A stretch of DNA of 58,368 bases, the filler included, from Sluysia triapertura (taxonomy: Eukaryota): assembly GCA_046118255.1 (NCBI GenBank). It is 4 parts of 4 records of this genome, joined end to end, with 100 filler letters (N's around TTAATTAATTAA, not from the genome) between each part and the next. Parts side by side here need not be neighbours in the genome. Positions count along the whole stretch, not along the records: positions 17,133 to 34,310 come from JBJNIA010191384.1; 3 more parts are not named here. One strand, 5' to 3'. Under the pieces are notes generated by a model. It was given only the letters and a program-made list of their open reading frames with translations. It was not told the origin of the DNA and did not search any database. Below are positions 1-48,540 of the stretch, one piece after another. How positions within the stretch are numbered: position 1 is the stretch's first letter; every line of letters begins with the position of its first letter. The translations under genes were made by a program, and so were the position numbers.

Positions 1-96
1 GTTTACAATCAATTTAAATTTCAAATTGTTGGAACTCCAATGCCTAAAATTTATCAATTTTGCTAATAATATCAATATATTGGTTTTTTATTTCTT

Positions 97-564: not shown

Positions 565-1025
565 ATGAATAATCAAATTAAATCATCTGTTGACTGTAAT
601 CATATGCAAAATTCATTATCAGATTTAAAAAACATCTTCCCACAAAAATATTCTATTCTAGAAATCCTTTTGCCAACTTCAAATAAACCTGATATTTCTT
701 TTGCATAGTCTTTAGATCATTTTTAACCTGAAATTATAAAATTTTGATTTTTAGTTATAGTTTACTTACTTACAATAGTGAGTAAGTGAATTATGACTAA
801 AAATTATAAGGTATCTACTTGGAATTTTACTGCAAAACTATCAATATGTTGCAAATACCACTGAAAAATCACTATGCTATTAGATATTATAATCATGACC
901 CCAGATAAAGGAAAAAATAGCTAAACTTTTGAGATACCTGAAATTATATAAATTATAAAAAGAATTTAATAAAAATAAAGAATTAATTAAAAAATTAATA
1001 GAGAGATCGATTTTGTTAAAAACTT

Positions 1026-1799: not shown

Positions 1800-2636
1800 T
1801 TGGTTTAAATTTTATAGTCGGATTAATATTTTATGTAATTTGGATTTTATGGTATTTAAAGTAATTTTATTATTATAATTATGATAAAGATATAAAAAGA
1901 AAAATTTTTAAAATAATAGTAACAGTAATACGATCTTAAAAACTTCAACCAGAGTTTCAGTAGTACAAATAAGGATTGACAGATATTCGCCATTCGATCA
2001 CTTATTTGGATTTCACAAATTTTTATCCATGAATACGTAATATTTGTTATTTTAAGGATATCCTATGATAATTTAGGATTAAAATTACACTTAAATTTTG
2101 TTAATATTTCATAACCACATATTACATCTGGTTCAATAATTTTATTTTCCAAATAAAATATTAAATTAAGTGAGATACCTTAATTTTTAATTGTCATATT
2201 TGTATAATTCTTTTGTATTTTATTTACAACCTTTGTTTTTTAAATATAATTCAAAGAATTAAACTTTAGTATTAACATTTTTGAAGAGTTTAAACATAAA
2301 CGTTAAGTTCTTTGAAGATTAATTTTAAAAGACCCTTAGTATAGGTTGACATACACAAGAATTTATAAGGAGATATTTGTAATTATTGACATAAAACCTA
2401 AAGCGGTGTCTTGTATGCATACAAATCATCGAATTCAGACGAACCCGAATAAGATTTTTGCATTTTTGCTGAGATATATTAATAATAAATTTATTTTTAA
2501 ATAAAATTAAAATAGTACATAAAAATTTGAAATTTATTTAGAAAAAATGACTTTATTGATAATTTACATAATACTCATTTTACAAATAAGATACTTAAAA
2601 ATATTTTTAATAATGAAATCTAGCCAATTAAATAAC

Positions 2637-5600
2637 CTCTATTTCAGGTCGGTCTGAAAAATTTGTAATAGTTAGCAATGGAGTGGAGTTGTTGGCTAAA
2701 GATCTTGACAATAACTTAGCTTTGCAAAATTTAGATTTGTGTGGATCACTTGTTACTTGTTGTACGTATTGCATCATATCTGAATAAGTGTAAGGATAAC
2801 AATGCGACAAATAAACAGTATCTCCTGAATGAGGAAATTCCATTGTCCAAGTTAAAGAGTAAAAATTTCTAGTTCCTTTACTAGTCTCATATCTAAATAA
2901 ATAAATTAACAAATTATATTTATTACTTTACAGACAATTTAATATAATTTAATGTAATTGGTTGTTAAATAATTACTAATAATTTTTATTAAAACTATAT
3001 GACCTTTATCAGGATTTTAAAATTAGTATTATCATTATTAAGATGAAAATAAAAAATCAATATCATCTAATAATTGGAGCAACAAATCATTTTAAATAAA
3101 CTTACTTTTTTATGTTAATATAGTAAGAGATATTAGATCCACATCTGTACCAACCTCGATTATTTTTTTGTGCTTCGATTGTACTGTACATAAGAGGACG
3201 CAAACCATTGTTATACAGACTGTTACTCTGGATGTGTTAAATTACCGTGTTAGATTTAAATAGAAATTTTATATAGATTAAAACAAATATTACAAAAACA
3301 TATTGATTTACAGCCTTATATCATTATTATTTAATTGTGTATTTAATAAATCAAAAAATTTCATTTAATTAAACACAATTTAATTCATACTTTGTATAAA
3401 TTTACAATCGTAAATCGATAACTGACTCCTGGACTATTTTTCATGTTTTTAACACGAAAGTAATACCACTGAGTGTGTTTATTTGTGTATAAATCAGCTC
3501 GAAGATATAATTCATAGTCATAATCACCTCTATGATCAAAAAATGAAATTGTATTATTTAAATATTAAGGTAATATTAAATTTTTATTTATAATAATTAT
3601 AGAGTAACACAACGCACTAAAAATCAATAAAGACACGATTTAATTATGATATCATTTTACATATTTTGGTCACGTTTTAGCGAATGACACAATTAATAAT
3701 GGTTTTCAGATTATTTAATGTTTGAATATAACTCTTGAGAAAAATATCAAATAGTATGAAGCAACATAATCTTGGTGGCTAATTAATATCATCAAAACGA
3801 GAAATTACACGATCTGGAAAATTATCTTTCAATAGATTGATTGTTAAAACTAAAATCATTCATAAAAGTTATCATTATTTTGCCTGTAGAAATCACTAAT
3901 CAAAGATAAAATTGTTTTAATTAAAACAGCATTTTTAAATAAAAAAGAAACAAAAGATTATAACAATACATGTTCACAAGCAAAAAAAGCTTAATTAGTA
4001 TTGGGTAATATCAAGACACTTCCAAAATAATCAATGACATACATTTTATATACTTTTTCTAAATTACCACATTCGAATCGAGATTCAAATTCCAATGTAT
4101 TATCTTGATTAGCAGAAATATCTTGAATGCTTGGTCGTATATTAACTGATCTTAGATTGGCATTGTCAGAAGGAGCTGATTTCGATTTCATGAACTTTAA
4201 ATATTAATATTATAATAATAATGAAAATTAATGTATTAATATATTCTTATAATAATAATATTAAGTAATAATAATTAATAACTATTATTATATATTAATT
4301 TTTCTTAGAAAAAGCCAACGTCCAAATGTAGCATAAAATTATTTTTTGTAAATAAGTATTTATAAATAAGTCCATCATAGAATATATTATATAAAGCGCT
4401 GTATCTCTTCACAAATAAAGTAACAATATAATTTTGAGGGAAATATGTGATTTTACATATTCAAAAAAGTAATGTATTGGGTAGTACAGAAAATATTGAA
4501 TCGATATATTTGTACTACTAGATAATAATCCGAATTTGTTATATTCGTAAACAACAAAAGTCTTACTGATCAAATCAAACTATTGTTGATTAACAGTAAG
4601 TTTGTCATTAAACCTTTCAGCCCCGGGATCATACTCAAGTAATACGAAAAGCATAATTTTAGCTTCCTCCAGATATAAAGATTATGCTCTTCATATTACT
4701 TTAGTAGGATCTTGCATAGCAGTTGACGCCATATGGCGGTCCCGGGGCTGAAAGGGTTAAATAAGTTCACTTTTAAGAAAAATTCGTATAATATTGTACA
4801 CCGTTAGGTTATCAGTCATCTAGTACAGGTGAACCCATTATTTGATATCTCCATTTTTGCCAAGAGAAGCTCGTGATACAATAATTATAATTATAATTAT
4901 AATTATATTGATAGTAAAGCATAATACTTACAAATGGTGCAGTAATTACTTTATAATCATAAACCAGTTGCCCACTCTCTTCTCCTCGTGGTTGTGATTG
5001 AAATTCAGTACCAGCTATTAAAGAAACAAAGAATAATTTATTAAAATAAATGATTTATTAAAATAATTTATTAAAGTAAGTGTTTCCAAAATTTTATTTG
5101 TTAAATTTTTAAAATCATGCCAAAATTAAATGAAATCGAGGTAACAGACAGACTAAACTAAGTTTTGATAGATATTTTTTTATATAATCTACAGTGTAAC
5201 TATTTTAATGCAAATAATTTCGAATGTTTATGTGCATAAAAAAATAATTTGTTTTAAATTCGTAGGCGAAACAACAATTAATAATTAAAATAATGTAAAA
5301 TTTTGTTGTAAATATAAGTTTAATAAAAGTTAAGTTTATCTTATGTTATCAGATAAAACATTTTTTGTGTTTTTGCGTAACTTCCGCGACAGCCGGGTAA
5401 CATCAATAAGTGTTCTGATGAATTTGCTTGTTTTAATAGCTGCATAACACTTATTACCGCTACATATATGTTGAGTATGCGTTGTTTATTTATGCTAGCG
5501 CTTGGCTATATCAGCTGTATACAGTGTGATAGGATATTTTAGATTTGTTTGTATCACGTCTAAGAATCCGTACTTAGAATTATGATTATGAATAAATAAT

Positions 5601-5716: not shown

Positions 5717-5794
<78 letters not shown>

Positions 5795-6551: not shown

Positions 6552-6603
<52 letters not shown>

Positions 6604-7319: not shown

Positions 7320-7389
<70 letters not shown>

Positions 7390-9498: not shown

Positions 9499-9564
<66 letters not shown>
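9499..9564. repeat. (ATA)n microsatellite directly upstream of an AGBL splice acceptor
   Basis: Direct read; it is the source of the spurious poly-Tyr in ORF 9355-9579. Confidence 0.95.
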
Positions 9565-9566
<2 letters not shown>

Positions 9567-15500: not shown

Positions 15501-15759
15501 ACGTTCTATTAACATTTTCAGCTAGAAACATTTCATTTAGAACATTAAATAGTATCTAAAACTCATGTAAAACTAGCAAACAGCAAGTAAAATCTGATTA
15601 AAACGTTTATGTAGTACCTTATAACATCCTTAAGCTGTAACATCACAAAAGCTTTGTATTACAATGAAAAATTGAATTTTAATTTAAAATCAAAAATATA
15701 TACAACTTAACAACATAAGCTGAACAAAAATCAAGCAATGACGACAGAACAAAATCAAT

Positions 15760-15910
15760 AACATCACGCAACAAAAATCAATCCAACCCTGCTATTCGCA
15801 GAAGGAAATGAATAATGAAGATAACATAAAATGACATAAAAGAAGAAATTACATATGTCGTTTTTTATATCTAATTTTTATTTAAGTTAGGTTACTTTTG
15901 GAACACCCTG
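15760..15910 (-). mobile_element. 5' end/TIR fragment of the Tc1/mariner element also present at 54808-55522
   Basis: CTATTCGCAGAAGGAAATGAAT...GACATAAAAGAA is shared with 55470-55520. It ends in ...GTTACTTTTGGAACACCCTG, whose revcomp (CAGGGTGTTCCAAAAGTAACC) matches 54808 GGTGTCCCAAAAGTAACC. Confidence 0.75.
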
Positions 15911-17032: not shown

Positions 17033-17132
17033 NNNNNNNNNNNNNNNNNNNNNNNNNNNNNNNNNNNNNNNNNNNNTTAATTAATTAANNNNNNNNNNNN
17101 NNNNNNNNNNNNNNNNNNNNNNNNNNNNNNNN
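17033..17132. other. Artificial contig-join linker
   Basis: N44-TTAATTAATTAA-N44; the central 12-mer gives stops in all six frames. Confidence 0.97.
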
Positions 17133-19330
17133 TTTTTCATTTCAGTTTATTTAAAATTTTAAAAGTTACCGGTTCGACGTAAGAACCGTATTAAACTATT
17201 TTATAAAAAATTTACAGGTTCAATTTCAGAACCTTATTAAAATCAATTTAAAAAGGTTCATTTTCAGAATCTCTTTAAAATCTTTAAACTATTTAAATTT
17301 TGTTAAAATTCTATAATTTTTGAGACCTCCTTAAATCAATTGCAACAAAACCAACGGTTGGCCGTTAAGTCTATAAGACCAATACGTTGGTGGACTCACC
17401 TTTCTAATTTTAAGTTTTATTCACATTCTTGCATTCAGAATACAATCCCCAATAACGCGTTTTGCAGTGTGCCCCATTTGTCGCAGAACGCTTTAAAAAT
17501 ATCGTGCTGTAGCCAAGCCTTTTACCCATAGATTCCACTTCCAGTGTCTTTTCTTTCTTTTTGATTCTTCGCCTACACCTCCACCGTTCTACAGTTAAAC
17601 ACTGCGAAATTTATTATAGAAAAAAGTTTACGCATTTTTATAACTTCAGCGTTACGTATATTAGAGATACAACAAGAACGCCTAATTCTTTAACCGACAC
17701 GCCCAATAATAATAATTATATTATTGTTACTCAACCAACATTAAAATCTAGATAACGTTCGGTAAATACACCTATTCAAAGACCAGAACCTATTCTTCTA
17801 CCGGGTTTAACCAAATCGCAAAAGAGAAATAGATGTCGTAGACAACTGAAACATTTTTATAAAACACAGGACAATCTTAGGAATAATACTGCAAAACCTT
17901 CTAATCCTTTTCTTATAAAAAAAGTATAAGTTTAGGTTTTCTCTAAAATCATTTATTAATTAATAAATCATAAACAAATATTTGTGTAAACTTATTGTTT
18001 GATTAATTATTTAATTATGTGTACCGTTTTATCATTTTTATTATTTCTTCAGTATTTCAACTAACAGTTACCATGTACCCATCTAACACAAAGTCCTTCT
18101 ATTTCTCTTTAGATAAGTATTGTGATGAAAATAGTTTTTTCATGTTTTTTCCAAGCTCACACAAAACGCCGAATAAATTTAAAAGTGAACTTGATTTCGA
18201 CGTAGCAACTTATATTTTTTCCTTTGAATGCTACTAAATCTTGCGTCACATTGAATGACTTGGCTAATCTCTCACACTTTGTATATAGCCGTCGCTCAAG
18301 GCCTTGTTAAAGTAGTAGCAACTTTGAACGAAATCCCATTAACCTTTCGAGTTGATACCTTCTGTATAATGTGCCTCTTTGAGATCAACATGTGATGCAA
18401 AATATACATAGAAGCCCACGAAATTCCGACATCTTTAGCTCTTCTTTTTAAATTGACATCTAGAGAGTTGTACTCATTGTTACCTAATCTTTTTGAGAAA
18501 GTTCTTGACAACGTTGCTCGATGGGCGGAAGGATCCTTCTTCACACATAAACCAAGAAGAGCGACTTCTGTTTGTGGCTTGTCACCACGCTGTAGACTTG
18601 GATGATAAACCGAGAATTATACATTTAGCGTGTACTCCATATATCAGACAGTACCACACCGAGGCTAAAATTCGCCCCTATTGCCGAATGTCTAACTTTT
18701 ATAGTGATATACACGGCATTAAGGAAGATGATTTAAAATCGGCTAAGGATATCTACGAAACGCAACATTACTTCCTAATGCAATTTCATAATATTCTCGT
18801 AACTTTTAATCCTAGACTTGTAATTAAAGTTTTACACATTCCTTTTGATTGGCTTCGGGGAATCATTAACCTCAATAATCACAATTTAGTTTCAATACCA
18901 GCTCCAAGCGTTTTAGCTCGTTCAAGCTTTTATATCCAGTTTTGCCACTGGATATACGCATGGCAACTGAACTTGTTCATCTTTTTGACTATATTCGGGA
19001 ACATGATCTCTCTTTTATCCCTGATTGTAATTTACCTCCTCTTTCTATCTTTCCTTCACTTTGTTTAGGCAATCTAGTATGCGACAACGTGATCTCATGC
19101 GACTCACCACCAACCTCTCCGAGAATAGATAATTCCAGAGCAATAACTGGCACAACTTCTCCAGTTTGGTCGCATCGATTCACGGATTTTATAAAATATA
19201 TATATTCCGACGACACAGAATCCAGCAACAGTGAAGATCCAGTTGACTTAGATGACTAATCCTATGATTGAACATTACTATTTGAATTACTGTGTTGTGA
19301 TTTTCTTTTTGATTTGAGGACAAATATTCC
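17133..19330 (+). mobile_element. Decayed copy A of an unclassified element family: structured leader, basic ORF1, unknown ORF2, DEDDh-like exonuclease domain
   Basis: The leader at 17351-17401 is 48/51 identical to 47312-47362. Stop/frameshift-broken ORFs lie at ~17561-17928, 18073-18540 and 18493-19259. Intronless and more GC-rich than the flanks. Confidence 0.5.
18493..19259 (+). pseudogene. Degenerate DEDDh (REXO4/ISG20/DnaQ-like) 3'-5' exonuclease-like domain, frameshifted
   Basis: KIRPYCRMSNFYSDIHGIKEDDLKSAKDIYETQHYFLMQFHNILVTFNPRLVIKVLHI resembles REXO4/ISG20 YVKPxxPVTDYRTxVSGIRPENLKxG..VQKEVAEMLKGRILVGHALHNDLKVL. ExoI 'ALDCE' is replaced by 'FVACH'. Continues in another frame (18942-19259). 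Confidence 0.5.
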
Positions 19331-21049
19331 CATGGTAGGATGTATTTGTAAAGTTATAATTTGTATATATACAAAATTATATAAAATTTATTCATGTTTA
19401 ATATTTATATTTTAATATTTTATATTTTATGTTTTGTAAAAATTAAAATATTATTAAAAATTATATAAATTATTACTATTTAAAAATTATAATTAAAAAT
19501 TAAATTTAAGAAAAAGAATAATCGAGAAAATTTGTTCTTATTAAGTAAAAATTTTTAATGTTTTTGTGACAAAAATTAGTATTTAAAACAGGGATTATTC
19601 ACAAAGAACACACAACAAACAAATAAAGCTAACAACAAAGCAAAATAAAGTTAGCACTATAATCAACAGCCAAATAAAGTATTCGATAAATAGAAGTCAA
19701 CGAAAATCTACCTCAAATATTTAACGTAATATTCAACGACAATTTCAACAAGCTAATATCAGGATACAGCAGCAGATTTCTATTGATTTTGGCCAATAAT
19801 TTATGTTTAAAATTTTCAAGCAGTAAGTCTAATTTTCACTTGAACAGAGTCTTAAATATTCTATTTCCGTTGGTCCTTAAGGCCAATGATAAAATCATTT
19901 TAAAACTAATTAAATCTTTTGACCGAGCCTCTAGCAAACTAGGTCTTTTTAAAAGAAAAATACTTTATTATTGTTATTATTTTTAGTTATACTATTATAT
20001 TAATTGGATTGTAAAACATTTTTGCTGTTGAACATTTATTTTTACGTTAATATTATTGTTAGTTTAATATTTTTTAGTGTAATTAGTGAATATTAGAATA
20101 TTTCTTATTTGATCTTTTGAATTATTGTATAATTAAATAAAGCATAAAGAGTGAACGATTAATTAGTTTAATAAATTAAAGTTTACAATAGAGCACATTC
20201 GATTTCTAAAGATTTCAAACATACCGATAGTAAAGTTACTTGAAAGAATAATTTTATTGCAGCCACTAAGTAACAAACCACGTATTTCACGAATTTTGTC
20301 GAAAGATTTTCACTTTATTTCATGTATCTACAGCCACGCCATTCGTAAGTCGTGTATTGTAGACGAACCTTTTTATTCCATTTTGTTGCTTGAGTAAGGT
20401 CAAGATATAGAAACCAGAGCATTTTATTATATCAAAGACAAAACACTATTTATGAACAGCATAAATACAAATTTTGTTCATATATTATTATTACAAGAAT
20501 ACTTTGTTCAAGAAGAGATTTTAATGTTCAGGATATTTTGTCAATTTATATTAACATGATTTGCTTCAATTCATTATTCAGGATATTTTGTCTAGTGAAG
20601 ATATTTAGTGTAAATCACCGTTAGTTTAAATTCATTTAAATTTGACGAAAGTTTCAATTTCGTTGCAAAACAGACAAAATTTTTATCAATCCTTTAATTA
20701 GATTGAAGCAAATTTTGCTATAAATTTGTAAATTCGTTTTGTGACAGTTGTTTTTTTATTGCTATTATAATTATAAAATTATAATTTAATTTTATACTCT
20801 AATATAATTTTTGTTGAATATAAATTAATTAATCACGTTGTTTCACTAAAGATTGATCGCTTTCTCGTAGCATTAATTTATATAGTTTTAAATTACATCT
20901 AAAATTTACCTGATATTATTGAATTAAATATTTAATGGAATTAAATATCCTATTTAATTGGGATACTTCGCCCCAACAATGCTATTACTATGCCAATACT
21001 GCAGGAAATATAGGCCTACGTATATTGGGCAGAGAAATAATCCCAATCG

Positions 21050-21660
21050 CACCAAACCAAGAATAGAAAATAATCTACCTTTGGTGAGTCTAAAATGAGG
21101 CAGGACATTTAAATGGTGCTGAGTCGAAATCTGGCGGGTCTGGAGGTGGTTCTTAGTGACCTGAATGTAAGGTACAAGTTTAATCCAACCCAGACTACTT
21201 CATAAACCTGAATATAAATGTCCAAGTCCTCAGCAGTTCCCATGTAAGACAATCGGCTCCGTTAACACAAGAAGTTGGTTATGACGAGAAACTCCAGACT
21301 GCTTAAGCAGATCTTGGATGTTAAGAAGTACTCACTCAATTATCACTTCCTGTATGTGCATGAAAAGCATGATGGACTAGGTCTGGTGTCTACATATTAT
21401 GTCTACATTTGTCAAAGTATCATAAGCGCATTCAGACTCCTCAGCTGCTCCACTGTGGAAACCAGAACGAATGGCAAAAGTCCGCATTGCAAGCGAGCCA
21501 ATCTTCAAGATGCTCTCGGTTGATTCAATGGTTCCCCGAACACTCGCTCGCCTAAACTGCAAACCTGGAAGATTAGGGTTCGAAAGGGTATAGAGAACCT
21601 GAACCGAAAGTAACACATAAAGATTACCTTTATGTTCGAGGACCCCATAATGGCAATTCA
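21050..21660 (+). mobile_element. Non-LTR retrotransposon relic (R2/NeSL/Utopia-type RT thumb region)
   Basis: LLKQILDVKKYSLNYHFLYVHEKHDGLGLVS...QSIISAFRLLSC matches the 'LYxxxxxGGLGL...AFRLL' thumb pattern of RLE-clade LINEs. The frames are broken. Confidence 0.55.
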
Positions 21661-21729: not shown

Positions 21730-22500
21730 TTCATAAGGTTAGTCAAAGATCTTAAAGGCTTAACAAGGCTTCAAGTCTACTTAAAGGTCAGTAAAGTCCT
21801 AAATGATCTCAAGGTTCATAAGTTCAAAGGTATCCTTAAAAGGTCTTTGTAATTCCAAGATATTCTTCAATTGTCAACATTAATATGGATGTTTTCCTCT
21901 TCATGATTCTTACTCCAGTGTTTATGTTCTATCACTTCGTATCAATTTTTCATTCATTTAATAGTTCTGTTTCTCACTTATCTCCTGATCCACAGTTTGG
22001 CAATCCCAACAAATATAGCACAATTAATAAACTAGGAGCGGACGTGCGTCGCATTCTATTATGGATACTAAAAGCGAATCACTCTTATTCGAAAAAAATC
22101 TGCTACACTTAAGTTATAGTTGAATATCATATAGAGTTGTACATGTGCGTGGAAATTGAATGTGATGTAAAACTTTTGTCAGGTTCTCATTGTGCCGATT
22201 TTCCTTCACACAAATGTTGTAAAATTTGCTACTCGATTACACAGACACCGGACCAATTTATTACAACTTCTCTGGCGATATATGAAAGTGGACTCCTATA
22301 TTAGAAAATCATTGTTCTTCGATGATTTACCCTGAGGATAATTTATGAGAACTACATTCATGTAAAATTGAGTTTAGATCGGACAATAGTATCGTTAAAA
22401 AGTTTGAGCGAATACGTGACACTTGAACATACGTCATCCAGGCCCGAAATACTCAATGCGATCGAAATGCAGACACTGAATTATAAACATGTGAGATAAC
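21730..22500 (+). pseudogene. Decayed copy C of the unknown ORF2 family (cf. 18073-18540)
   Basis: By-eye similarity to copy A: PNKY/PNKF, CKICY/CKIY, LQLLWRYMKVDSYIRKSLFFDDL / LALLFKLTSRELYSLLPNLFEKV. It is preceded by an AAGGT(T)C-iterated tract resembling 17160-17280. Confidence 0.35.
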
Positions 22501-23074: not shown

Positions 23075-26000
23075 TTATTTTTTTTTATTTTTTTTCTTTA
23101 ACATATTTATATGATCCTTGAATATTGAATCACGGACTTCACGATCGATTTTTTCGCAAATGTCATCCCATCTATCATCTTTTCTTAAAAGTCTTTTAAC
23201 GTCTTTCCAGGAATCATCAGAATTTCTGACTAAATCAGTTAATAAAACTTTAAAAGCCTGTTCTGCTTCAGATTTCAAATAATTATCACGTTCTTTATCT
23301 CTATCTCGCAAAGCAGAAGATATAGATTCTTTAACTTCTTTTTCTCTTTCTCGTAAACTAGCCTCTTGTCTTTCTTTCTTTTCTTTTTCATCTAAACTAT
23401 CAGTCTAAATACAATAATTAATAATATTTAAATTACTTTTATTTTTTTGATATAATCTTTAAACCAATCTTCCCTTTTCGACGAACTATCTATTGCTTTA
23501 TATCTTGGATCATTATCAATTTTTTTTCTTACATCAGACCAATGTGAAGCTTTTGTTAATTTTTGCTCTTTTAAAAGCGATAGAAATTGTTGTTTTACCT
23601 AAATAAAAATAATTTAAAAAATATTGAATTTAAACTCATCTGAAATACCATAAAATTTTCAATAAAAGTTAAAACTAATTATTTAGATTTTGTATTTAAA
23701 AATAATTTATTACTGAATTTAACTATCGCATAGCTCGCACTACTAATTTTGATATTTTTTAAAGTTTATCCACGTATAACGGAACATTTATGCATTATCA
23801 AAATTAATAAATTAATTTTGAAGTTTTAGAATTAAAGAAATTTTATTTATTATCCTCACCACATACCGCCAAATTTTTATTCCATGTGATAAAAAATAAC
23901 ATTAAGTTTTCATCTGCAATTAAATTCTAAATTCTTTATCACAAACGGGCTGTAACGAACATTACCAAAACGTGTACGCAAAATCTTATCCTCTAGTTAA
24001 ACATTTCCAAGCCTCCCATTCTATTGATGCTAATATCACAAGATTTATTACTAATTGTTTGTTTAGCATTTTGTTATATGGACCTTCATATTACATGACT
24101 AAGACTTGATTTCATGAAATACCTCAAAGATACCAATCACGAGAATTGTGATTTTATTTTTTATTCAATAAAATATTTTACTAAGGCAATATACGTTTGT
24201 GATTGTATGTATTTCAAAACATCCAAGTAAATAAAAATATTTCCAGATTAACAGTTAACTACCAAAACTAGTTACCACTAACTTTGAAGGCACTGTTTTA
24301 GTATTTTGGTCAAATATCAAACATTTTAATGCGTGATTATCGTAAAAGTATCGATAACTGCTTTGCCGTAAATGTCAAAATTAAATTTTCAACAATTCGT
24401 GGATTATAAAATAATTTCATGTTACTGAAAATCCAAATGGTGCAAAATATTAAACAAATTAAAATAATTTTACAAACAATTAAAATGCTAACGTTAATGA
24501 ATTAAACTTAACGTTTGGATATAAATTCATTTATACATCATTAGCAACTTGGACAATAAATTCAATTATTGTATAAAATATCCAAAAATAAAATATAATT
24601 CACAACTTTACTAAGAGCTTAGTTTAAAATCGAAATTACCTAATTTGAAAATACAATTTATCAATAAATTCGTAACTATTTTTTCATTAAATAAGCCACA
24701 ATTTGATATATCCTAATTTCGTTTACATAAAATATTATAAAAGTCAAACCAATACATTTTATAATATATGCATAACTTAGCAATTTAATAATTTCAATAA
24801 TCAATAAGTTTTAAGTCACATATTCGTAGATTTGATAACGCCAAAAATAAATTTAAAATACAACGGAAAATTTACATTATTTATTAACTATTTAAATTAA
24901 GATTTTACTATTAAATCTTATATTAGAGCATTAACACTGCATCTACAGTAGCTGTTAAAAGAAACTTTAAAATTAACTTCAAAATTATTTTTCAAGTTTA
25001 ACATAGTTACCAAAGATTTGTACTTAATTCATGGTAATGATTGGTTTAAAAAAACTAAATGTTTATTAAAATTGATTAACTTAAAAAATTACTTTAAAGT
25101 TAATTTTTAAGTCTTTTGAAATACAAAAATTCAAGTAAAATAAATAATTCTTACTGTGCATTATAGTTTGTGTTATGAATCTTAAAATCGAAAGCTTTAC
25201 TATTTTACTTTACTTTTTGAATTCATTTTCATATAAAATTAGCATAATTAGTTTAACATTATCCTTACTCACCATATATAATAAAATTTAAACCGCTTTG
25301 AACACGAAGACTCTTTTGGTAGCCCTAAAATTTAACATTTACAAACTCTATAAAACCTTGAAATAATTCATATACTATATACCAATACATAATTAACCAG
25401 GACAGCAAACCCACCGTGTTTCATATTCCACTATGAATAGAATAAAATATATTTGATCTGACACTTCTTCTCAATAACTAAAATTGATTTTATTTCAAAA
25501 ATTCAAAATCTGCAACTGATAAAAACATTTCATAAATTATAAATAATATCTACCTAAGAAAATATTTTGTATTTTTACATTGTCATTACATTACATAATC
25601 TTATATTATGTTAAATCTATATAAATTTCACGTAATGACTTCAGCCTAATTTGCAATTACAATATTTAAAATTTCAAAAAATCAAATTATTTTATTTTTT
25701 ATCAAGGGTTTAAGTACATTTTTTATGAATTTCTTTACCATATAATGTTACCGAAACTATTTTTTCTAATATCTTGTACACAGAAAAATAAATATCAAAT
25801 CCTAAACAAATTTAAAACCAAATAAAATTTTAATTATTAATTTAAACTAAGCCAATTTTTATTATGTATTAAGTGTAACTAACAAATATAATCTCTAGAA
25901 TCGGAGTAGCAAATGGAGCAGCATCTAGAAGTTAACTATCGATTCCTACCTGCCCAATTGATCATTCAGAAATGCTAGCAAATTAAAGAAATATTATTTA

Positions 26001-29000
26001 AGGAAGATGATTACTATTTTTCTGCTTCATCTGTGGAACTACAGTAATTTCTTTCTTAGCTATCCTTAATACATTTACGTGAGTAAATAGTAAAACTTTA
26101 ATCATTTTTAATATTTTGATGTTTAACTTATTCTTATTATTCATTATTCTTGTTTTAGTTAACTAAAGTGTAGCAGAACGTCAGTGGCAATATAGTAAAC
26201 TTACTGCTTCACCTGAACTGTACAATCAACTATGAATACGCAAATACAGTTGCACTAATTGAAGTTTTTATGAATTAGAATATGTTCACAAAATATAATT
26301 TTCGGCCTTTTATCTACAAAACTAATTATTTTTCTAAAACATTTGTTTTCATTTAAAATTCATATATTTTTAATGTTTGTAAAATCGATACATTTTGATT
26401 ACACTACTTAAAATTAAGCAATTTTCTTTCGCTAGTATGCATAAAACTTTAAAAATAATTTTTAATATTTAACTGATATCTTGAAACATTTTTTACGAAC
26501 AGTCATAAAACCCATTAATGAGTCCAACCATATCGTGAGCTGCAAGAGACATTTCTTAAATAAAATTAAGCTTTAAGTAAATTAATGCCCATAAAACCGT
26601 GTATTTCTTATGAACAATTTAAAGTATGTATGAGTTGAAGATCAGAAGAATTACTGTCACGTCCAAAATAAAATATACAGATATTATATGCACATTAATA
26701 TTAGGTGACTAAGGCGTAATTATAGTCATTTATAAAATTAATCCTTTAACTTTCAAATTATAATTCTGTAAATAGTTATATATGTACATAATTTTAAAAT
26801 TACAACCAGTAAAAAATAAAACCTACTAAGTTTTGGAGTAAGAAAGAAATTACCGTATTGGTTAATAAGAACATGTGAAAAATCTAAATATTTAGATTTA
26901 GATACTTGTATTAAAAATATTTTAATTTTGCTTAAAATGCATAACGCAGATTATCAACATTTTAAATTCGATATTTATATTGTTATCGTTTAAGATTTGC
27001 ATACTTCAAATTCGTTAATGCATGCCGGATAATTATTACTTAAATACATTAAAATAGCTTTAACTATTTAATAATAACTATTTAACTATTTAAAAATAAT
27101 ACCATTCATTCTAGTAATATAAGTATTACTAGAATGAATGGTATTATTTTTATTAAATAATAATAGCATTTAATTGTAGCATTTCGGTTATTACGATTTT
27201 TTATGATTATTTTTGTATATATTATGTGCCTCTTAGCTTTTTTATTTGTTTAATAATTATTTCGAAATTTCAAATTAACATTAAAATGAATTATGCAAAA
27301 ATAATTTAAAACCTTCAATTTTTCGTAAGTGTGGTCAATTGTAATTTATATATTGCCAAATAGTCGTGATTATAAAGCGAAACTCGGTACATCAACATAG
27401 TAAAACGATTAGATATTTCGGTGTTCAAATCAAGTCCCAAACAATCAAAACTAAGTCATAGGATCATCCAGCAAAATAGACTTACAGTTTTTAAATATGG
27501 ACTAACAAGTAAAATAATTTCCATATTTTTATTTAGGTTAAAATAATAAATTTAGGTTTTAATTGAGAAAATGAATTTCACAAACCAGAGTTGCATAATG
27601 CCCAAATATATTTTAATACAGTTATCTTTACTGTTATTCAGGTTGTGAAATACAAAAAATGTATCAAAACTGTTCCGTACTGGTATGCGAATAGTGCGTG
27701 GTATCCTGACAGCACGCTTTAAGGGCAGCAATATCAGATCTAACTAATAATTAAAAGTACATTTTAAAAATTTTCGAATTCGATTTAATTTATTGATTTA
27801 CTATTAATTATTTAGTTCAATTTCAAAATTAAATATGTTCATCTCGGTTTCTGGAAAATTATCAAAAACTAGGCAAATTATTTTACATTAAAGTGTAAGA
27901 ATTGCTAATTATCTTCATTGTCAAATCCAATTTTCAAAATTTTTATAAGGACAAAAATAGAGTGACCCATGTTAATACTTTTAATTCTTGAAAACAATAA
28001 GTTTTAGTTTCATTAAGAGAAAAATGAAACTGTGACCAGATCACTATATATTTAATGCATAATTTGAATCTTGCTTTGAATTTAATATAGCAATGTTAAT
28101 TTATCAAGTAATTTAATATTAAATTAATTTTAAAATAAGGAATCGCATAAATTTTCAAAAATATTAATTCATTAACTGATTTATCCGTCCTGGATATTGG
28201 CAGGTGCGAAACTATCGTTTCAAGAAATAATGTAATGTACATTGAATTTTTAAATTAATAAATATTAGCACTTATCAAATTTAATATATCATACTATAAA
28301 TCAAAAAATCTTGGCAAAATTTTAAAGAAATTTTCTAAATAATTAATCTGACAAAGAATTAAATTTTACATTCATTTTTGATTTAAACTAATGTTTTACT
28401 TTTAATTTGATGCAACATAGTCTATTAAATAACAGTATAAGTACAAATTAAAAACAATCTTGAATTTAAACCTTCCAAAACAAAAAATACACAATAGTTA
28501 TTTTTTAAGTTTTAATCGAATCTACACTTTATTTGTTTAGTGCAACACTAACAAGCAAACCTAAGATTTAAATTCACAGTTAGTTGAGTCATACGTTCAC
28601 GAGACTTGAATTTCCTGTTATTAATGTATGATACAAAAGTAAATTTGAGTTATGTACATAAATTTTGAGAAAAAGTAGCATCACAACAAATAGAACACAT
28701 TTTAATAAAATGCAGTAACCAACCCTGTGTTTGTGATTGTAATTAAAATTCATCTAACATTTATTTTCATATTCTTTTAATACTTTATTTTTTGTTTCTT
28801 AAAAGCAAAACATTGTGATTGTGTAAAACTTTGTGTTGCACTTTTGTTAACTTTTAATTTTGATAATTATTTTTATGTAAATTTTATCAAATTACACTTT
28901 GAATTTCAATTTATTTAGAAAATAAAGCCATTTGTAATGGATTATTATCCTTTAAATTGTCTAAACAAACTATTATACATTTTCTAATATTTATATTCTT

Positions 29001-32000
29001 TAAGCTTCTTGAGAAAATTTTTAATGTTCTTAAAAATATTTGATTCATTAATAACTCATTAATTCTTTTTGAAAATATCTTAAGTTGCTGCTTAATAGTT
29101 AATCCGATAGCTGCCATATTTGATTACTCTTAATTTTTCATTTCTTTTGACATTAATCTTTACATTTATATTATCCGTAACATATAAAATAAATATAAGC
29201 TTCATTATAATTAGCAATATCAAACACAGATAAATGAATTCGTAATACTTTTTAATTTTTTAGAATTATAGTTAATTAAAGAGATTATGTTTAATGTTAC
29301 TTTATTTTTGCTTTTTAAATTAAATAATTTAAATAAATCAACTATATAATAAACTCCTCTCACTTGTATATTTAATAAAGGAGTTAGTTAAGTTTTATTT
29401 TAGTCAGAAGTGATTGATAAAGTAAAAGGTATATTATTGAATACTCCCATCAAGCTAAACATTAATACATTTTCATTTAGGGTTTTTATTTTGAATAAAT
29501 AAATTTTTGTAATAAACTTTTGATTCTACCTTAAATTTATTCACTTTTTAATTCTTAAATTTGAACATTTGTTTTAAATTTATTACTGTTAATATAATTT
29601 TGATGAATTTAAAACGAGAGCTTTCACCTTAGATAAAGCATAGTACAAAATCAACAACTTACATCAAATTAATCGAACCTTGCAAACCACAATTACATTA
29701 AACTATGTAACTGATTAAATTACATTAGAAATTATAATATTTAAAATCAAATTTCAATACTTCAGATAAGTTAACCAAAATAAATAAAAAATATATTGAA
29801 ATAAATTTTGACAAATATTAGAAAATAAAACTTTTACACAACCTATATAATTAATGTAAATAAAAAACATTATTCACGTACATAAGTTAAATCACGGCTA
29901 AAATATAACTTTACATGTACAATAATTTATATTTTAAGTCATTACAAAATTAAATAATCACAGTGAATTCCGACTATTAAAAAGTTTAATAAATGAACTA
30001 TATGAATTTATATTAATTTTTAAAATATAATTAAACACATTTTATTATATTGTAATACTACTCAATTTTACGCTTAAATTATACACTTAAAATCTTATTT
30101 AAATATGATGTAAATCCAGACAATTTTAACCCATCAATTAATTTTTAATACTCAAAGCGGTTTCAAACTACTTCACAGTCATTAAATGGCAAACAAAGTT
30201 TTTAGTCATACAATCTGGAGTTATTGGTTATATTTAAATTGGATTCATTCATATTACAAAAACATAATAATTAAAGTTCTTATGGCATCCATTAAATTAT
30301 AAAGTTATTAAAAAAATAAACAGTTGAATATTCACTATAAATTATTATATTAAATCTAACAAATTCTAAAGCATTTGATTTAATTTATTTTAATTACATT
30401 ATAAAAATTTGTTAATACTCACTTTGTCTTTATGTTTATCATCTTTTTCTTTCTTTTTTAAATCACTTATAAAGTCATTAAATAAGGACTCGCGATCACG
30501 AGACTTTTCTATTGCTTTAAAACGGTCATCTTTAGAATATTTACTTGAAAAATCAGAATATGAGGACCTATATTATTAATAAAACATAACTAAAACATAC
30601 TTTAGATTGAGATTTGCTTCTTTCAATAATTTCCGAAAATATTCTTTCTTTTCACGTTGTAAATTCTTTTTTTCTTTTCTTTCTTCCTCGGCTCTCTCTT
30701 TTACAAAACTTTCGAAAGCAACTTTGCGCTCCTTACTAGTAAGCAATAAGTAACGAGAATCAAATACTATCTTATGTAATTCCTTTTCCCAGGTCGAAAA
30801 GGCAGATACCTGTTTTTCAATTAATAATTCTCTGAATTGGCACAATCTATTTTCTAACGGCAATAATGCTCTTTCTTTAGCAGCTCGTTCTGCAGCTTCT
30901 TTAGCAGCTTCCTTAGATAATGGCACCATTTCTTTATTAGAAACTTCATTGCTATCATTTGCACCAGAATCACTTTGTTCATTATCCAAATCTTCAGATG
31001 AATCAGACTCATTAATATCTCTAAAAAAAATATGTTCTATAAAATGTAAATGAAACGAATTTAATAAATTTAATAAAATGTTTTCAAATTACTAACAACT
31101 TTTTTTTCTTTGAAGGAGGTTCATCCAAAGAATCATTATCAGATGATTTCTTATCTTTTGAAATTTCCTTAGGAGGCTCTTCTAACATCCTATCAACGTC
31201 AGAACGTCCTTTTAATTCATCCGGTCGTTCCCAAACACTTAATCTTTTTGCAGGATTGAAAAAAAATACTCTCCCATCCCCAGTCCAAACAATGCACCAT
31301 GGAGTTCCACTTACAGGTGTACTTGATACAGGTTTAGATTTATCTTTTATTTTCGATTCATCAGTTTGTTCATTTTCGTCCTCATCATCCACAGATTCCT
31401 TAAATACAAGTTAATCAAACATAGGTTAATGAGAACTGACTATTCTAATAAATATTAAAGATTTAAATATTGATATTAATCGAAGATAATACATAATCTT
31501 AAAATATCTTGTTCATTTGAATCCACAATTAATTAAACTAATAGAAATGCAAATATCATTCGAAAATTAAAAACTGCAAAACTATTTGAGAAATTAACAT
31601 ACCTCCGAATCACTTGAATCTTCCTTTACTTCTTGGATTTTTTCACTTGTATCATTTACTTTTGTAGCAGAATCAGAATGTTTTTCATTTTTATTTTGAT
31701 TGTCTTCTATAAAAGATATTTTATCAAATAAAGTTTTATTTTTATAATATATTCCCAAAAAAACTAACTTTCCCAGTCTTGTAAAACTTGTGGTTTATCC
31801 CACGTAGTAATACCAGTTCTTCTGTTGTGATAGTATAATCGACCATCAGGAGCTTTGTATTCATTCCACTCTATAACTTCAGGCGGCTTAGTCTGGGTAC
31901 TTATAACTTCAGTTGTCTGTATAGGTGCAGATGATATAATAGTTTGATTTTTATTAGCAACTATAGCGTCAAGTTCTGTTTGTAAAATTATCTGTTAAAA

Positions 32001-33567
32001 CATAAATTATACTAAAAATCAAACACTACAATAAAAATTATTTTAAAATTAGTCCATAACTTAATTTAAAATTCCTGTGCTACATTGTTTTTCAAATCAG
32101 ATTGGTTATTCAGAAACCGTCTAGTAATTATTATATTTAGTTAAAATCTGACTAAAATCAATTTTGATATTTTAAATTTACAATTACTGTCAAATGACTA
32201 AACATTTGTAACAGCTTCGAAAGAGTTACAAACATTCTAAGTTTTTAATGGAAATTATGAAAAGTAATTATGTTAATTGTAACTTACTTTAACACCCTGG
32301 GGGCGCTCCCACGTGGTTTGTCTTGTTTTCCAATTATAATAATATGATCTACCATCGTTTGTTGGATTTTGAATCCAAACATTATCTTCATTTAAGTTTT
32401 CTATTGTAAGAGGTTTTTCAGTCTGAGTGGGTATATCCATTGGAGGAAATGAAGCTGGAAAATTAGGTGGTGGGATTCCTATAGGTCGAAATATACCTGG
32501 AAAACGAAATGGTGGTGGATAAAAAGGCAGATCCTTAGCTTTTGGATCTATATTACCTTCATTGAATGGCATCCGTTGATCTGGTCTGGGAGGGTATCTA
32601 AGTCTCGGATCAATAATTTCAGGTCTAGACATAAACGGTGGTGGCATATTTGGAGGAGGATTATTTAGGGAAACGGGCATCTGTGGGGGAAATCCAGGCG
32701 GAACAGGAGTTTGACTAAATGGCCTGGATACACCAATTCCAGGTCTTGGAGCACTCATTACATCTGGTGGCATATTGGGCGGCACTCCCATTGGTCTATT
32801 CATGTGTGGAGGTGGACCTGGCCTAGGTGGATACGGATGCCCATTATTGATCATACCAATACGAGGTCTAATTATGCCTGGAAGTGGATTTCTAGGATCT
32901 AGAAGCAACGGCCTTTCTTTGTTTTCTATTGCGGAATCTAGTTTTTCTTCAAAGTTTTCATCTAATTTTTCATTCTCATTCTGGTTTTCGTCTTTATCTT
33001 CAAGTGCGTCATCAGACTGCATTCTAGACTCTTCTATGCCTTCCATTCTAGGTCTAAATATAGGATATCTACCCGGTGGTAAACGATTCATATGAAGAGG
33101 CATTCTAGGCATTCCTTCTCTAACCATAGGCATGCGATTAGGCATAAATGGATATCTCTCACGAAAGTTTTCATTGAATTCCCGTGGACGCATATCCGAC
33201 CTAGGTGGCATCACTCTAACATCTATATTTTCAGAATTCAATAGTCGTTCTCGTTCTGCCGGGTTAACTTGCCGAGAATAACCAGATAGTCTTTGTTCAA
33301 ATCTATTGAAGGGTCTACAAATATCAAAACAAAATATTTTGTTTATAACCTTAAACCTGACCGCTGAGATAGAGGTGCAGCATTTCGGTTAAAAGGATGT
33401 CTAGGTAATCTTGGAGTCCCAGGTCGCGTGCTTCGCTCATCTTGTATACTAAAGAAACTTAAAATATTTTAAACATCTTACAATGGTGGAGGCCGAACAA
33501 AAGATTGATTTAAAGGTGGAAACGATTTCACATCATGAGAAATATTTTCATTCACAGTTTCATCCAT
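23075..33567 (-). CDS. TCERG1: Transcription elongation regulator 1 (CA150): Pro-rich N-terminus, 3 WW, 4 FF domains
   Basis: Phase-consistent GT-AG exons: 33567-33482, 33448-33350, 33314-32288, 31991-31769, 31706-31603, 31398-31097, 31020-30601, 30567-30423, 23598-23437, 23404-23075. WW1 [21 protein letters not shown]; WW2 [21 protein letters not shown]; WW3 [28 protein letters not shown]; FF1 [23 protein letters not shown]. Confidence 0.93.
27091..27152. repeat. Perfect 29-bp inverted repeat with a 4-nt loop, in the 6.8-kb TCERG1 intron
   Basis: TAAAAATAATACCATTCATTCTAGTAATA-TAAG-TATTACTAGAATGAATGGTATTATTTTTA. Confidence 0.9.
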
Positions 33568-33950: not shown

Positions 33951-34148
33951 GCAGCGTAAAAATGATTTCAAACATTTCTGTTTCTATCGAAATTTAAATA
34001 AAATTAAGTGCTATAATAGTATTATATTAAAGTTATTTAAAAGTTCAAAATTATTTCAGTTTCTGCGAAAATAAGTGAATTAATTGTCGAACAATTAATT
34101 TTTATTTTTAAGAAACTGAAACATCAGTATTTCTATATACGTTCTTAA

Positions 34149-34310
34149 TGTGGTGGCCAACACTCACAACCACTAAAAATTTATTTAAATTTCACAACAT
34201 CTAAATTACAATCATATTCAACATTATCAATTTACATTAACTATTTCACAAAAATCATAACTCGACATTCACATTAACCCAACAATAAACTCATTCGAAA
34301 TAATACATCT
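34149..34310 (+). repeat. Dispersed C/A-rich repeat (homologue of 38320-39030), cut by the contig end
   Basis: TGTGGTGGCCAAC..CAACCACTAAAA..CACAACATC..CAATTTACATTAA..ACTCGACATTCA..CATTCGA are shared in order with 38320-38570. Confidence 0.75.
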
Positions 34311-34410
34311 NNNNNNNNNNNNNNNNNNNNNNNNNNNNNNNNNNNNNNNNNNNNTTAATTAATTAANNNNNNNNNNNNNNNNNNNNNNNNNNNNNNNNNN
34401 NNNNNNNNNN
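34311..34410. other. Artificial contig-join linker
   Basis: N44-TTAATTAATTAA-N44. Confidence 0.97.
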
Positions 34411-34426
34411 TACATTTATTCTTACA

Positions 34427-34427
<1 letters not shown>

Positions 34428-34493
<66 letters not shown>
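34428..34493. repeat. (TTA)n microsatellite
   Basis: Direct read; at the contig start. Confidence 0.95.
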
Positions 34494-34497
<4 letters not shown>

Positions 34498-47183: not shown

Positions 47184-47283
47184 NNNNNNNNNNNNNNNNN
47201 NNNNNNNNNNNNNNNNNNNNNNNNNNNTTAATTAATTAANNNNNNNNNNNNNNNNNNNNNNNNNNNNNNNNNNNNNNNNNNNN
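47184..47283. other. Artificial contig-join linker
   Basis: N44-TTAATTAATTAA-N44. Confidence 0.97.
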
Positions 47284-48540
47284 TCCATTTTACTTTTTAC
47301 GTTAGAAAAATCCAACGGTTGGCCGTTCAGTCTGTAAGTCCAATACGTTGGTGGACTCACCTATATTCTTAAGCTTTATTCTCTTTACACTTTTCTTGCA
47401 TAATATTATTTTCTATGTTCATTTCAAATTCAGTATATATTTGCACATCATCAGAATACAAGTAGCTATAATTTAAATATACCAGAACGTCAATTCAAAT
47501 GTTCAAATATGCTTATAGAGTGTAACAATATTAGTGATTCTCTTGCCGAAGTGATGATACGGATGAAGAAATGCGCTCATCGAGTAACAAAAGAAAAAGA
47601 TAAAGTTCTTATCTGATAAATTATTTAAATATATTTTAAGCAAATTTAAATCGAACTAAACCAATTCGAATAATGAAGCACCAAGACGTAAATCCTGACA
47701 CTACTTGTAATACTTGAATTACTCATTTCTGAAATTTGACAGTAAGAAGCACCAAGATGTAAATCCTGACACTACTTGTAATACTTGAATTACTCATTTC
47801 TGAAATTTGACAGTAAGAACAAACCATGAACCAACCCAAGAATTTCTAGCTAAATCAATCCCTCGAACGAAATATAAAACCTAATGTTAACATGGGTAAC
47901 TTTTTATCTTTTAAAATTGGGAAGTTTTGTAAAACTAATTACATGGAAGCTGTAACTATTAACCCTGACTTTCCTGAAGCTACATGACGATATTATTCAT
48001 TAAATTCGAATTAATAGAGCCTTGAGGCGATTATCTTGAAAGTGTGCTCTCTACGCATAAATATTTGCTGACCCAGCCATTGCAAAACCGTCTATCATTT
48101 GGTATCAACGAACAGCAGAAGTAAGCATCAAGCTATCATTGTTATCATAACGACGTTATCATAAATCGTGATACAATAATCAATTTAAATTTATTTAAAA
48201 TTTATTCTCAACACGTCTTTGAAGCAGAAAGATACGCGCCACTCTTCACCATCGAAACAATGGAGTCTCGCAGTGGAATCCTCAAAAATCAGACAATAGT
48301 TTATTCGACGGGATTCGGCTTAGTGTATTTCCTTGCAAGAGTTAATTCGACACAATATAAAAGTAGATTCTGATGCTGCCTATTGTTACAGTTCTCTATC
48401 GGGAGATTGAATAACGCCTTATGAAAGGTGTTGGCGAGCGTCGAATGACGTGGAAAATGTCTACTTTACGTACGTTACTTATTTTATTTTTGGGATACCC
48501 AAACGGTGTATTGTAAGACGAAGCACAAGAATCATAATAT
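47284..48540 (+). mobile_element. Decayed copy B of the unclassified element family (leader + ORF2 homologue), probably inside an SGPP intron
   Basis: Leader at 47312-47362. ORF2 pieces from ATG 47892: LSFKIGKFCKTN ~ copy A FYFSLDKYCDEN; DFPEAT ~ DFDVAT; PLFTIETM ~ PLTFRVDTF. Confidence 0.5.
47675..47819. repeat. 71-bp tandem duplication
   Basis: GAAGCACCAAGA(C/T)GTAAATCCTGACACTACTTG...GAAATTTGACAGTAA x2, one mismatch. Confidence 0.95.

What the first reader, a model, noticed from the sequence alone, without database searches (positions are those of the whole stretch)
17133..19330. Unclassified dispersed element family: conserved leader + unknown ORF + pseudo-exonuclease (copies at ~17.1-19.3, ~21.7-22.5 and ~47.3-48.5 kb)
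Seen: two contigs begin with the same 51-nt leader, followed 0.5-0.7 kb later by intronless, stop-riddled ORFs. These share peptide patterns in the same order (F.F.[LI].K[YF]C..N; DF..AT; PL.?F.[VI][DE]T; L.[KR][LV].S.?.Y) with no obvious DNA identity. A third copy at 21885 shares PNK[FY], CKI.?Y and L.LL[FW][KR]....[DE].Y. Copy A continues into a DEDDh-like domain. No RT, transposase or capsid motif is recognisable. Inference: an old, multi-copy mobile element, an endogenous virus, or a lineage-specific expanded gene family. Location at contig ends fits a repeat. Established: some retroelements carry extra exonuclease ORFs.
Basis: partly seen in the sequence, partly recalled or inferred. Interest (0 to 1): 0.75.

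Follow-up and report, generated by a model that had tools for sequence, protein, structure and literature searches.

The report
Decayed orphan pseudo-exonuclease gene, shared leader
An AT-rich animal genome carries a broken, intron-free copy of a gene for an undescribed two-domain protein, likely ending in a disabled exonuclease fold and likely delivered by a mobile element or virus; its short upstream sequence recurs on a second contig, but the claimed three-copy protein family is not borne out.

Summary
Partly confirmed. The leader is real: 51 of 55 nt are identical (66 of 76 with the flank) at 17347 and 47308, and these are the only two copies in the window. It matches no Rfam family. Copy A (18073-19004) is a real pseudogene. 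It aligns collinearly with residues 16-347 of one intact 365-aa protein (P0001, a singleton on a 1,964-nt Logan contig), the only hit among 1.84 billion cluster representatives, and has 4 frameshifts and 1 stop. Several weak hits point to a DnaQ/DEDDh-like C-terminal half, but the catalytic acids are missing in both sequences. Two AlphaFold2 models failed (pLDDT 32-34), so the fold is not proven. The three-copy ORF family is not supported: C aligns with neither A nor P0001 above controls. B gives only a marginal signal against P0001 (1 of 300 shuffles), begins inside a different 130-nt repeat, and may instead be the tail of a decayed R2-like retrotransposon. No RT, integrase, capsid or RdRp is linked to A. 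Best reading: dead accessory gene of an unclassified mobile element (0.45). Rivals: endogenised RNA-virus gene (0.25) or host retrocopy (0.25).

The parts
17171..17271 (+). Three short inverted repeats GGTTC-N7-GAA(C/T)C at 17171, 17217 and 17255, upstream of leader A only
   Evidence: 3 of the 5 looser GGTTC-N4-14-GAAYC matches on the + strand of the window lie here; role unknown
17347..17422 (.). Shared leader, copy A (55-nt core plus about 20 nt). A string of short palindromes; the minus strand has AG|GTGAGT and ends in a T run
   Evidence: minus strand folds at z -2.0, plus strand z -0.9; no Rfam match
47308..47381 (.). Shared leader, copy C
   Evidence: homology to A ends abruptly on both sides; minus strand z -2.4
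18073..18551 (+). Copy A pseudogene, N-terminal domain of unknown family; broken by frameshifts near 18226 and 18281 and a stop near 18395
   Evidence: aligns with P0001 residues 16-101, score 72 vs shuffles 29+-3, max 37 of 25; tblastn E 0.002; no Pfam
18556..19004 (+). Copy A pseudogene, C-terminal DnaQ/DEDDh-like domain without recognisable catalytic acids; frameshifts near 18555 and 18917
   Evidence: 36% identical to P0001, E 3.7e-12; phrog_192 E 3.4e-4; PolC exonuclease E 0.058; NCBIfam E 0.025; ESM features 0.92; alignment with E. coli DnaQ, RNase T and ExoX
19005..19259 (+). Stop-free Ser/Pro/Asp-rich tail continuing the last frame of copy A; not matched by P0001
21943..22423 (+). 'Copy B': decayed GC-raised stretch; either a remote remnant of the N-terminal domain or the CCHC/endonuclease tail of the RT-like remnant upstream (unresolved)
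47880..48540 (+). 'Copy C' region: GC 36%, longest stop-free stretch 82 aa (73 of 500 shuffles reach it); not shown to be related to A

Best explanation
Copy A is a dead, intronless gene for an undescribed two-domain protein of about 365 residues, whose C-terminal half is likely a DnaQ/DEDDh-type fold that has lost its catalytic acids, and it likely entered the genome as the accessory cargo of an unclassified mobile element together with the 76-nt leader. Shown: the leader repeat, the pseudogene, its full-length homology to the intact P0001, and the frameshifts and stop. Inferred: the fold; that the intact protein would bind RNA ends (for example the element's own transcript) rather than cut them, as catalytically dead DEDD derivatives do; that the leader is a cis-acting end or UTR sequence reused with different cargo, since the second copy precedes unrelated sequence; and that leader and ORF are of similar age.
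For: P0001 aligns with A from residue 16 to 347, score 205-206 against a background maximum of 48 in 146 windows. It is the only hit at E<=0.001 among 1.84 billion representatives, and a word-based search with P0001 returned only itself, so this is not a widely conserved housekeeping gene. The alignment is collinear with no room for introns at the breaks, while host genes here are split into many exons. GC is 37% against 22-23% in the flanks. Four libraries give weak DnaQ-type hits. Both leader copies sit within 214 nt of contig starts, as repeats do. Leader divergence (4 of 55, about 3.6% per copy) predicts 1.5 stops in 300 codons and 1 is seen (a rough check that also fits 2-6%). Precedent: DEDDy ORFs are shared as accessory genes between LTR elements and Terminons in bdelloid rotifers (PMC5408684, passages; PMC6431247, passages).
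Against: No RT, integrase, transposase, LTR, terminal inverted repeat or target-site duplication was found linked to A. Only one intact relative exists in the searched collections, as a singleton; a large active family might give more. The bdelloid ORFs are DEDDy with intact catalytic residues, unlike this one. The fold is unproven: no Pfam hit, hhalign to three E. coli exonucleases gave probability 0.4, and both AlphaFold2 models failed. The leader lies 650 nt upstream of the ORF, and sequence between leader and ORF is barely alike in A and C (2 of 200 shuffles reach the score), so the leader could be an independent short repeat.
Confidence: 0.45

Rival explanations
1. Copy A is an endogenised gene of an unknown invertebrate RNA virus, reverse-transcribed by host retroelements. 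The protein would be nucleoprotein-like with an exonuclease-fold tail, as in arenavirus NP, and the leader would be a terminal sequence common to different segments, with C the remnant of another segment.
For: Domain order (unknown N-domain plus DEDD-fold C-domain) resembles arenavirus NP (PMC7968707, passages). An arenavirus NP cluster ranks 3rd for the C-domain (0.92, 135 of 256 features) and 1st for P0001 (0.76, a lead only). P0001's contig (1,964 nt) is about as long as leader-to-stop in A (17347-19259, 1,913 nt). Intronless, GC-raised, no detectable relative in named proteomes.
Against: No Arena_nucleocap or Arena_ncap_C match and no PDB sequence match. P0001 has no cysteine in its C-domain, so no ECHC zinc site. 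The feature count is below the 170 typical of true family members. No relative in viral contigs. No RdRp in the stretches scanned. A 650-nt spacer is long for a viral UTR (own knowledge).
Confidence: 0.25
2. Copy A is a processed pseudogene or decayed paralogue of a fast-evolving, lineage-specific host pseudo-nuclease (Maelstrom/EXD1-like role in small-RNA silencing). P0001 is the working gene of a related animal, and the leader is an unrelated short repeat or small Pol III-type RNA gene.
For: Animals use catalytically dead DEDD derivatives in piRNA pathways (passages; PMC2628886 abstract). The host lineage is poorly sampled: its CPSF2 is only 45-48% identical to the nearest named proteins, from flatworms, so missing homologues prove little. 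A 1,964-nt contig also fits an mRNA. The leader's minus strand folds better than shuffles and ends in a T run.
Against: The Maelstrom Cys/His residues are absent. No poly(A) tail or target-site duplication is evident after the ORF. 36% identity is low for orthologues of related species. No named flatworm or other animal protein was hit.
Confidence: 0.25
3. One reading: A, B and C are three decayed copies of one ORF family.
For: Motifs occur in the same order, and for A and B at similar spacing. P0001's N-domain aligns collinearly with B (residues 17-188 vs 21943-22423); 1 of 300 block shuffles reaches the score under each of two matrices, and it beats all 146 background windows in 1 of 3 settings (3 and 7 of 146 in the others).
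Against: A vs B is at chance (106 and 150 of 300 shuffles), and adding A to the profile weakens the B signal (6 and 23 of 300). C is never significant (40-192 of 300; 32-33 of 300). B has no leader, and its start belongs to a 130-nt repeat with two other copies not followed by such an ORF. The same B DNA in another frame reads like a decayed CxxC knuckle following an RT-thumb-like remnant (motif spacing recalled; domain order from PMC4838377).
Confidence: 0.15

Closest known systems
DEDDy accessory ORF3 of bdelloid Vesta/Juno LTR retrotransposons and Terminons (PMC5408684, PMC6431247; passages read)
   Same: An intronless DnaQ-superfamily ORF that would travel as cargo in mobile elements of an invertebrate.
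   Different: Those ORFs are RNase D-like DEDDy with intact catalytic residues and are linked to RT. This one looks DnaQ-H-like, lacks the acids, has an extra N-domain of about 190 residues, and no RT or hammerhead is linked.
Arenavirus nucleoprotein with C-terminal ExoN (PF00843/PF17290; PMC7968707, passages read)
   Same: Two-domain layout ending in a DEDD-type fold; language-model feature likeness.
   Different: No HMM or PDB sequence match, no ECHC zinc site, no DEDDh acids, invertebrate host, no L gene seen.
Maelstrom / EXD1 pseudo-nucleases (PMC2628886, abstract read)
   Same: DEDD-derived domain without the canonical acids, likely RNA-binding.
   Different: The EHHCHC signature is absent; intronless and broken; no detectable homologue in named proteomes.
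DnaQ/PolC/RNase T-type DEDDh exonucleases (PF00929, phrog_192)
   Same: Central P...HGI...DL...LV segment aligns.
   Different: Below all curated cut-offs; ExoI D-x-E and ExoII Asp are not present.

Membership tests
Active DEDDh (DnaQ-like) exonuclease | RNase H-like DnaQ fold | tested here: inconclusive
   Weak hits E 3.4e-4 to 0.076 and ESM 0.92; no Pfam hit; hhalign probability 0.4; AlphaFold2 pLDDT 31.8 and 33.5
Active DEDDh (DnaQ-like) exonuclease | ExoI D-x-E | tested here: not met
   The strand expected by spacing (spacing recalled from REX4/ISG20-type enzymes) reads FVACHHA in A and FVAVQQA in P0001. MAFFT instead places P0001's upstream IDYE there, but A has no Glu at that site, so the register is not certain
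Active DEDDh (DnaQ-like) exonuclease | ExoII Asp (HN..FD) | tested here: not met
   The column of E. coli D103 holds a hydrophobic residue in both A and P0001
Active DEDDh (DnaQ-like) exonuclease | ExoIII His and Asp | tested here: inconclusive
   P0001 has His324 and a Glu aligned across a gap; A has neither at those sites
Arenavirus nucleoprotein | Arena_nucleocap / Arena_ncap_C profile match | tested here: not met
   no PDB sequence hit
Arenavirus nucleoprotein | ECHC zinc site in the exonuclease domain | tested here: not met
   P0001 has cysteines only at 67 and 88; no Cys or His invariant between A and P0001
Arenavirus nucleoprotein | Encoded on an RNA segment that goes with an L polymerase | not testable with these tools
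Maelstrom | EHHCHC residues | tested here: not met
   definition from PMC2628886 abstract
Bdelloid-type retroelement ORF3 / Terminon cargo | Linked RT or pol gene | tested here: inconclusive
   None found in 17.4-19.4 kb; the contig starts 214 nt before the leader; an RT-thumb-like remnant 1.7 kb downstream has no database support
Bdelloid-type retroelement ORF3 / Terminon cargo | Hammerhead ribozyme at the element end | tested here: not met
   No Rfam match at gathering in the window, none meaningful to E 10 in 17133-17700
Bdelloid-type retroelement ORF3 / Terminon cargo | DEDDy exonuclease with intact catalytic residues | tested here: not met
   C: never. B: marginal against P0001 only
   No assembly held; no read depth obtained
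Viroid-like / deltavirus-like circular RNA | Rod-like fold of the whole unit | tested here: not met
   Circular fold of 17133-19260: 56% paired, 36 hairpin loops
R2/NeSL-type RLE retrotransposon (for 20.9-22.5 kb) | RT thumb followed by CCHC, RH and PD-(D/E)xK motifs | tested here: inconclusive
   LY......GLGL-like and CxxC....QT..Q motifs each occur once in the window and in this order (motif spacing recalled, patterns written after seeing the sequence); no Pfam or PDB support

The most novel reading that the evidence does not exclude
Copy A is a genomic fossil of an unknown segmented RNA virus (or virus-like multipartite element) of a flatworm-like animal. Its 365-residue nucleoprotein-like protein ends in a disabled exonuclease fold, the 76-nt leader is the end sequence shared by its segments, and P0001 is the living relative. 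That would be a third RNA-virus lineage carrying an ExoN-type fold besides nidoviruses and arenaviruses.
Probability: 0.2. Interest if true: 0.8.

Novelty: new variant of a known kind. Interest (0 to 1): 0.42.

Why it matters
The protein family appears undescribed: two members, no Pfam, PHROGs, NCBIfam or PDB assignment, and no matching description in six literature searches (listings only). If it is mobile-element cargo, it extends the known pool of DEDD accessory ORFs from active DEDDy enzymes to a catalytically dead DnaQ-like type in another animal lineage. If it is viral, it would break the statement that only nidoviruses and arenaviruses among RNA viruses encode an ExoN domain (PMC7968707) and give a handle on an RNA virus that RdRp-based surveys cannot connect to its other genes. 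As it stands the evidence is one pseudogene, one intact orphan and a two-copy leader.

Tried and rejected
No whole genome is held, so copy number is unknown. Sequencing runs: one run listed, X1, holding 0.45 of the sampled words; no RNA holder listed. No read depth was obtained. Word-based search with the exonuclease piece among longer proteins: 0 of 78 candidates; with P0001: only itself among 1,482. The search for related loci found no relative: P0001 in viral contigs 0 of 17 and in metagenome contigs 0 of 96 pattern hits; A's C-domain 0 of 22 and C's ORF 0 of 53 in viral contigs. Leader patterns: 2 viral loci matched a 22-mer, both inside the same phage structural ORF, and 15 matched a 16-mer; none of the 17 extends (23-29 of 55 nt), so they are chance. 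The degenerate 30-mer gave 0 hits in metagenomes. Phage tblastn: nothing for A, one E 2 hit for P0001. Known ribozyme, tRNA or other Rfam family for the leader: none. Spliced-leader RNA was considered because of the minus-strand AG|GTGAGT and rejected: the would-be exon is the least conserved part and no shared Sm site follows (criteria recalled). Rod-like circular RNA rejected. Introns as the cause of the frameshifts rejected: the alignment is collinear. Four look-ups in earlier findings returned nothing. No supplementary files of the papers were read.

Full report
Setting. The window is four contigs joined by spacers at 17033-17132, 34311-34410 and 47184-47283. It is AT-rich (median GC of 700-nt windows 24.7%) and holds exons of ordinary eukaryotic genes. 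One of them, CPSF2, is 45-48% identical to its best named matches, which are flatworm proteins. The host is therefore a divergent, poorly sampled animal, probably a flatworm or other spiralian (inference). No whole genome is held, so all copy counts refer to this window.

The leader is real. 17347-17401 and 47308-47362 differ at 4 of 55 positions; with the flank 66 of 76 nt match, E 4e-21. Pattern searches give exactly two copies against 0-0.02 expected, and a profile of both copies finds no third. Similarity stops abruptly on both sides; the next 500-650 nt of A and C score 34 against a shuffle maximum of 34 (2 of 200 reach it). The copies lie 214 and 24 nt inside their contig starts. Rfam has no match at gathering score in the window and only four chance-level matches at E 2.8-9.1 near copy A, none on the leader. 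The minus strand folds somewhat better than shuffles (z -2.0 and -2.4) and the plus strand does not (z -0.9 and -0.2); the four differences show no compensatory pair on inspection. Upstream of copy A only there are three GGTTC-N7-GAA(C/T)C inverted repeats. Matches to leader patterns in viral contigs do not extend (17 of 17 loci at 23-29 of 55 nt).

Copy A is one broken two-domain gene. phmmer of the stop-free stretch 18541-18963 against 1,835,955,588 representatives returned one protein, P0001 (365 aa, 36% identity, E 3.7e-12), a singleton known only from a 1,964-nt Logan contig. P0001 also hits A's N-terminal part (E 0.002). A frameshift-aware alignment covers P0001 residues 16-347 and window 18091-19004, with four frameshifts (near 18226, 18281, 18555, 18917) and one stop (near 18395). 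Its score of 205-206 compares with a maximum of 48 in 146 background windows. The alignment is collinear, so the breaks are not introns; long host exons in the same window are unbroken, which argues against assembly error. The region is GC 37% between flanks of 22-23%.

The C-terminal half looks DnaQ-like but disabled. Hits are weak and agree: phrog_192 DNA polymerase exonuclease subunit E 3.4e-4, PolC exonuclease 2p1j E 0.058, NCBIfam epsilon subunit E 0.025 and DEDD family E 0.076, and language-model neighbours at 0.90-0.92 that carry PF00929 or arenavirus NP families. Against this: Pfam gives nothing relevant, hhalign to three E. coli DEDDh enzymes gives probability 0.4, and AlphaFold2 on 2-3 rows failed (pLDDT 31.8 and 33.5). 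In the alignment with DnaQ, RNase T and ExoX the central P...HGI...DL...LV block lines up, but the ExoII Asp column is hydrophobic in both A and P0001. The first strand reads FVACHHA and FVAVQQA with no D-x-E (expected spacing recalled). An alternative register on P0001's IDYE exists but is not kept in A. P0001 has no cysteine in this half, which excludes the Maelstrom and arenavirus zinc sites described in PMC2628886 (abstract) and PMC7968707 (passages). Since the intact P0001 also lacks the acids, their loss predates A's decay. RNA binding without catalysis is an inference from other dead DEDD derivatives.

The three-copy family does not hold. Direct comparisons of A, B and C are at or below shuffles (95, 61 and 97 of 100 shuffles reach the observed scores). 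A profile of A plus P0001 finds nothing in B or C. C is within controls in every frameshift-aware test, and its longest open stretch is ordinary (82 aa; 73 of 500 shuffles), although its GC of 36% is raised. B is more interesting: P0001's N-domain aligns collinearly with 21943-22423, 1 of 300 shuffles reaches the score under each of two matrices, and it tops 146 of 146 background windows in one setting but is matched by 3 and 7 in the other two. A itself does not align with B (106 and 150 of 300), and adding A to the profile weakens the signal (6 and 23 of 300). These were several of a dozen or more tests, so the signal is a lead only. B's first 140 nt belong to another repeat with copies at 38062-38211 (-) and 39392-39546 (+). 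B also follows a GC 42% stretch at 20.95-21.65 kb that reads like a non-LTR RT thumb, and carries a CxxC....QT..Q motif at 22218 in the place where R2-type elements have their CCHC (motif spacing recalled; domain order from PMC4838377 passages). Neither Pfam nor PDB supports this reading. The two readings use different frames of the same DNA, so at most one is right.

How it most likely arose. Shown: a dead intronless gene of a two-member orphan family, 650 nt downstream of a repeated 76-nt sequence, near a contig end. Inferred: gene and leader arrived together as part of a mobile unit. A rough age check fits: about 3.6% change per leader copy predicts 1.5 stops in A's 300 aligned codons and 1 is seen, though 2-6% fits as well. 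Leader-to-stop in A spans 1,913 nt, close to the 1,964 nt of P0001's contig, which may be coincidence. I put 0.45 on accessory cargo of an unclassified transposable element, for which bdelloid DEDDy ORFs are the precedent (PMC5408684 and PMC6431247, passages); 0.25 on an endogenised RNA-virus gene with an arenavirus-NP-like layout; and 0.25 on a retrocopy of a lineage-specific host pseudo-nuclease. Flatworms do carry diverse RNA viruses, bunya-like ones among them (PMC9241645, passages), but nothing here links A to an RdRp. None of the named families passes its membership tests.

Novelty and score. Six literature searches (listings and abstract starts only, apart from the six papers cited) showed no description of this family; the library lacks most subscription journals and no supplements were read. 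The finding is a new variant of a known kind, a DEDD-fold accessory or pseudo-nuclease gene in foreign-looking DNA. It rests on one pseudogene and one intact orphan, with the fold unproven and two of the three claimed copies unsupported. Interest 0.42; the viral reading would deserve 0.8 and has a probability near 0.2.

Noticed in passing
window 21885-22027 (+), 38062-38211 (-), 39392-39546 (+): A dispersed repeat of about 130-150 nt, three copies 72-77% alike, unclassified; a possible weak fourth at 36176-36264 (E 0.008).
   Followed up: partly
window 20950-21650 (+): GC 42% decayed stretch with an LY......GLGL-like motif that recalls the thumb of R2/NeSL-type non-LTR reverse transcriptases; no Pfam or PDB support.
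   Followed up: partly
window 49042-49400 (-): Mariner/Mos1-like transposase remnant (HTH_48, E 4.5e-4) about 500 nt after region C.
   Followed up: no
window 17171-17271: Three spaced GGTTC-N7-GAA(C/T)C inverted repeats at the start of contig 2, like protein-binding subterminal repeats.
   Followed up: no
window 17756-17929 (+): A 57-codon stop-free, basic (Lys/Arg-rich) stretch between leader and copy A, in frame after an 80-codon stretch at 17513-17755; possibly a decayed upstream ORF.
   Followed up: no
window 47675-47816: 71-nt tandem duplication, 99% identical, between leader C and region C.
   Followed up: no
window 34145-34304 / 38316-38564; 40030-40094 / 40346-40411; 42483-42595 / 42706-42812; 15727-15813 / 55411-55495; 15848-15907 / 54808-54873: Further two-copy repeats, 78-88% alike, unclassified.
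   Followed up: no
window 55623-56980 (-), 23075-33388 (-), 70-1799 (+), 2628-5054 (-), 50221-50772 (-): Exons of ordinary host genes: CPSF2 and, by recalled likeness only, TCERG1, EMC1, a cytosolic carboxypeptidase and a sphingosine-phosphate phosphatase.
   Followed up: partly
window 5719-5793, 6553-6603, 7320-7388, 9499-9566, 34427-34497: Long (TAA)n microsatellites, 50-75 nt.
   Followed up: no
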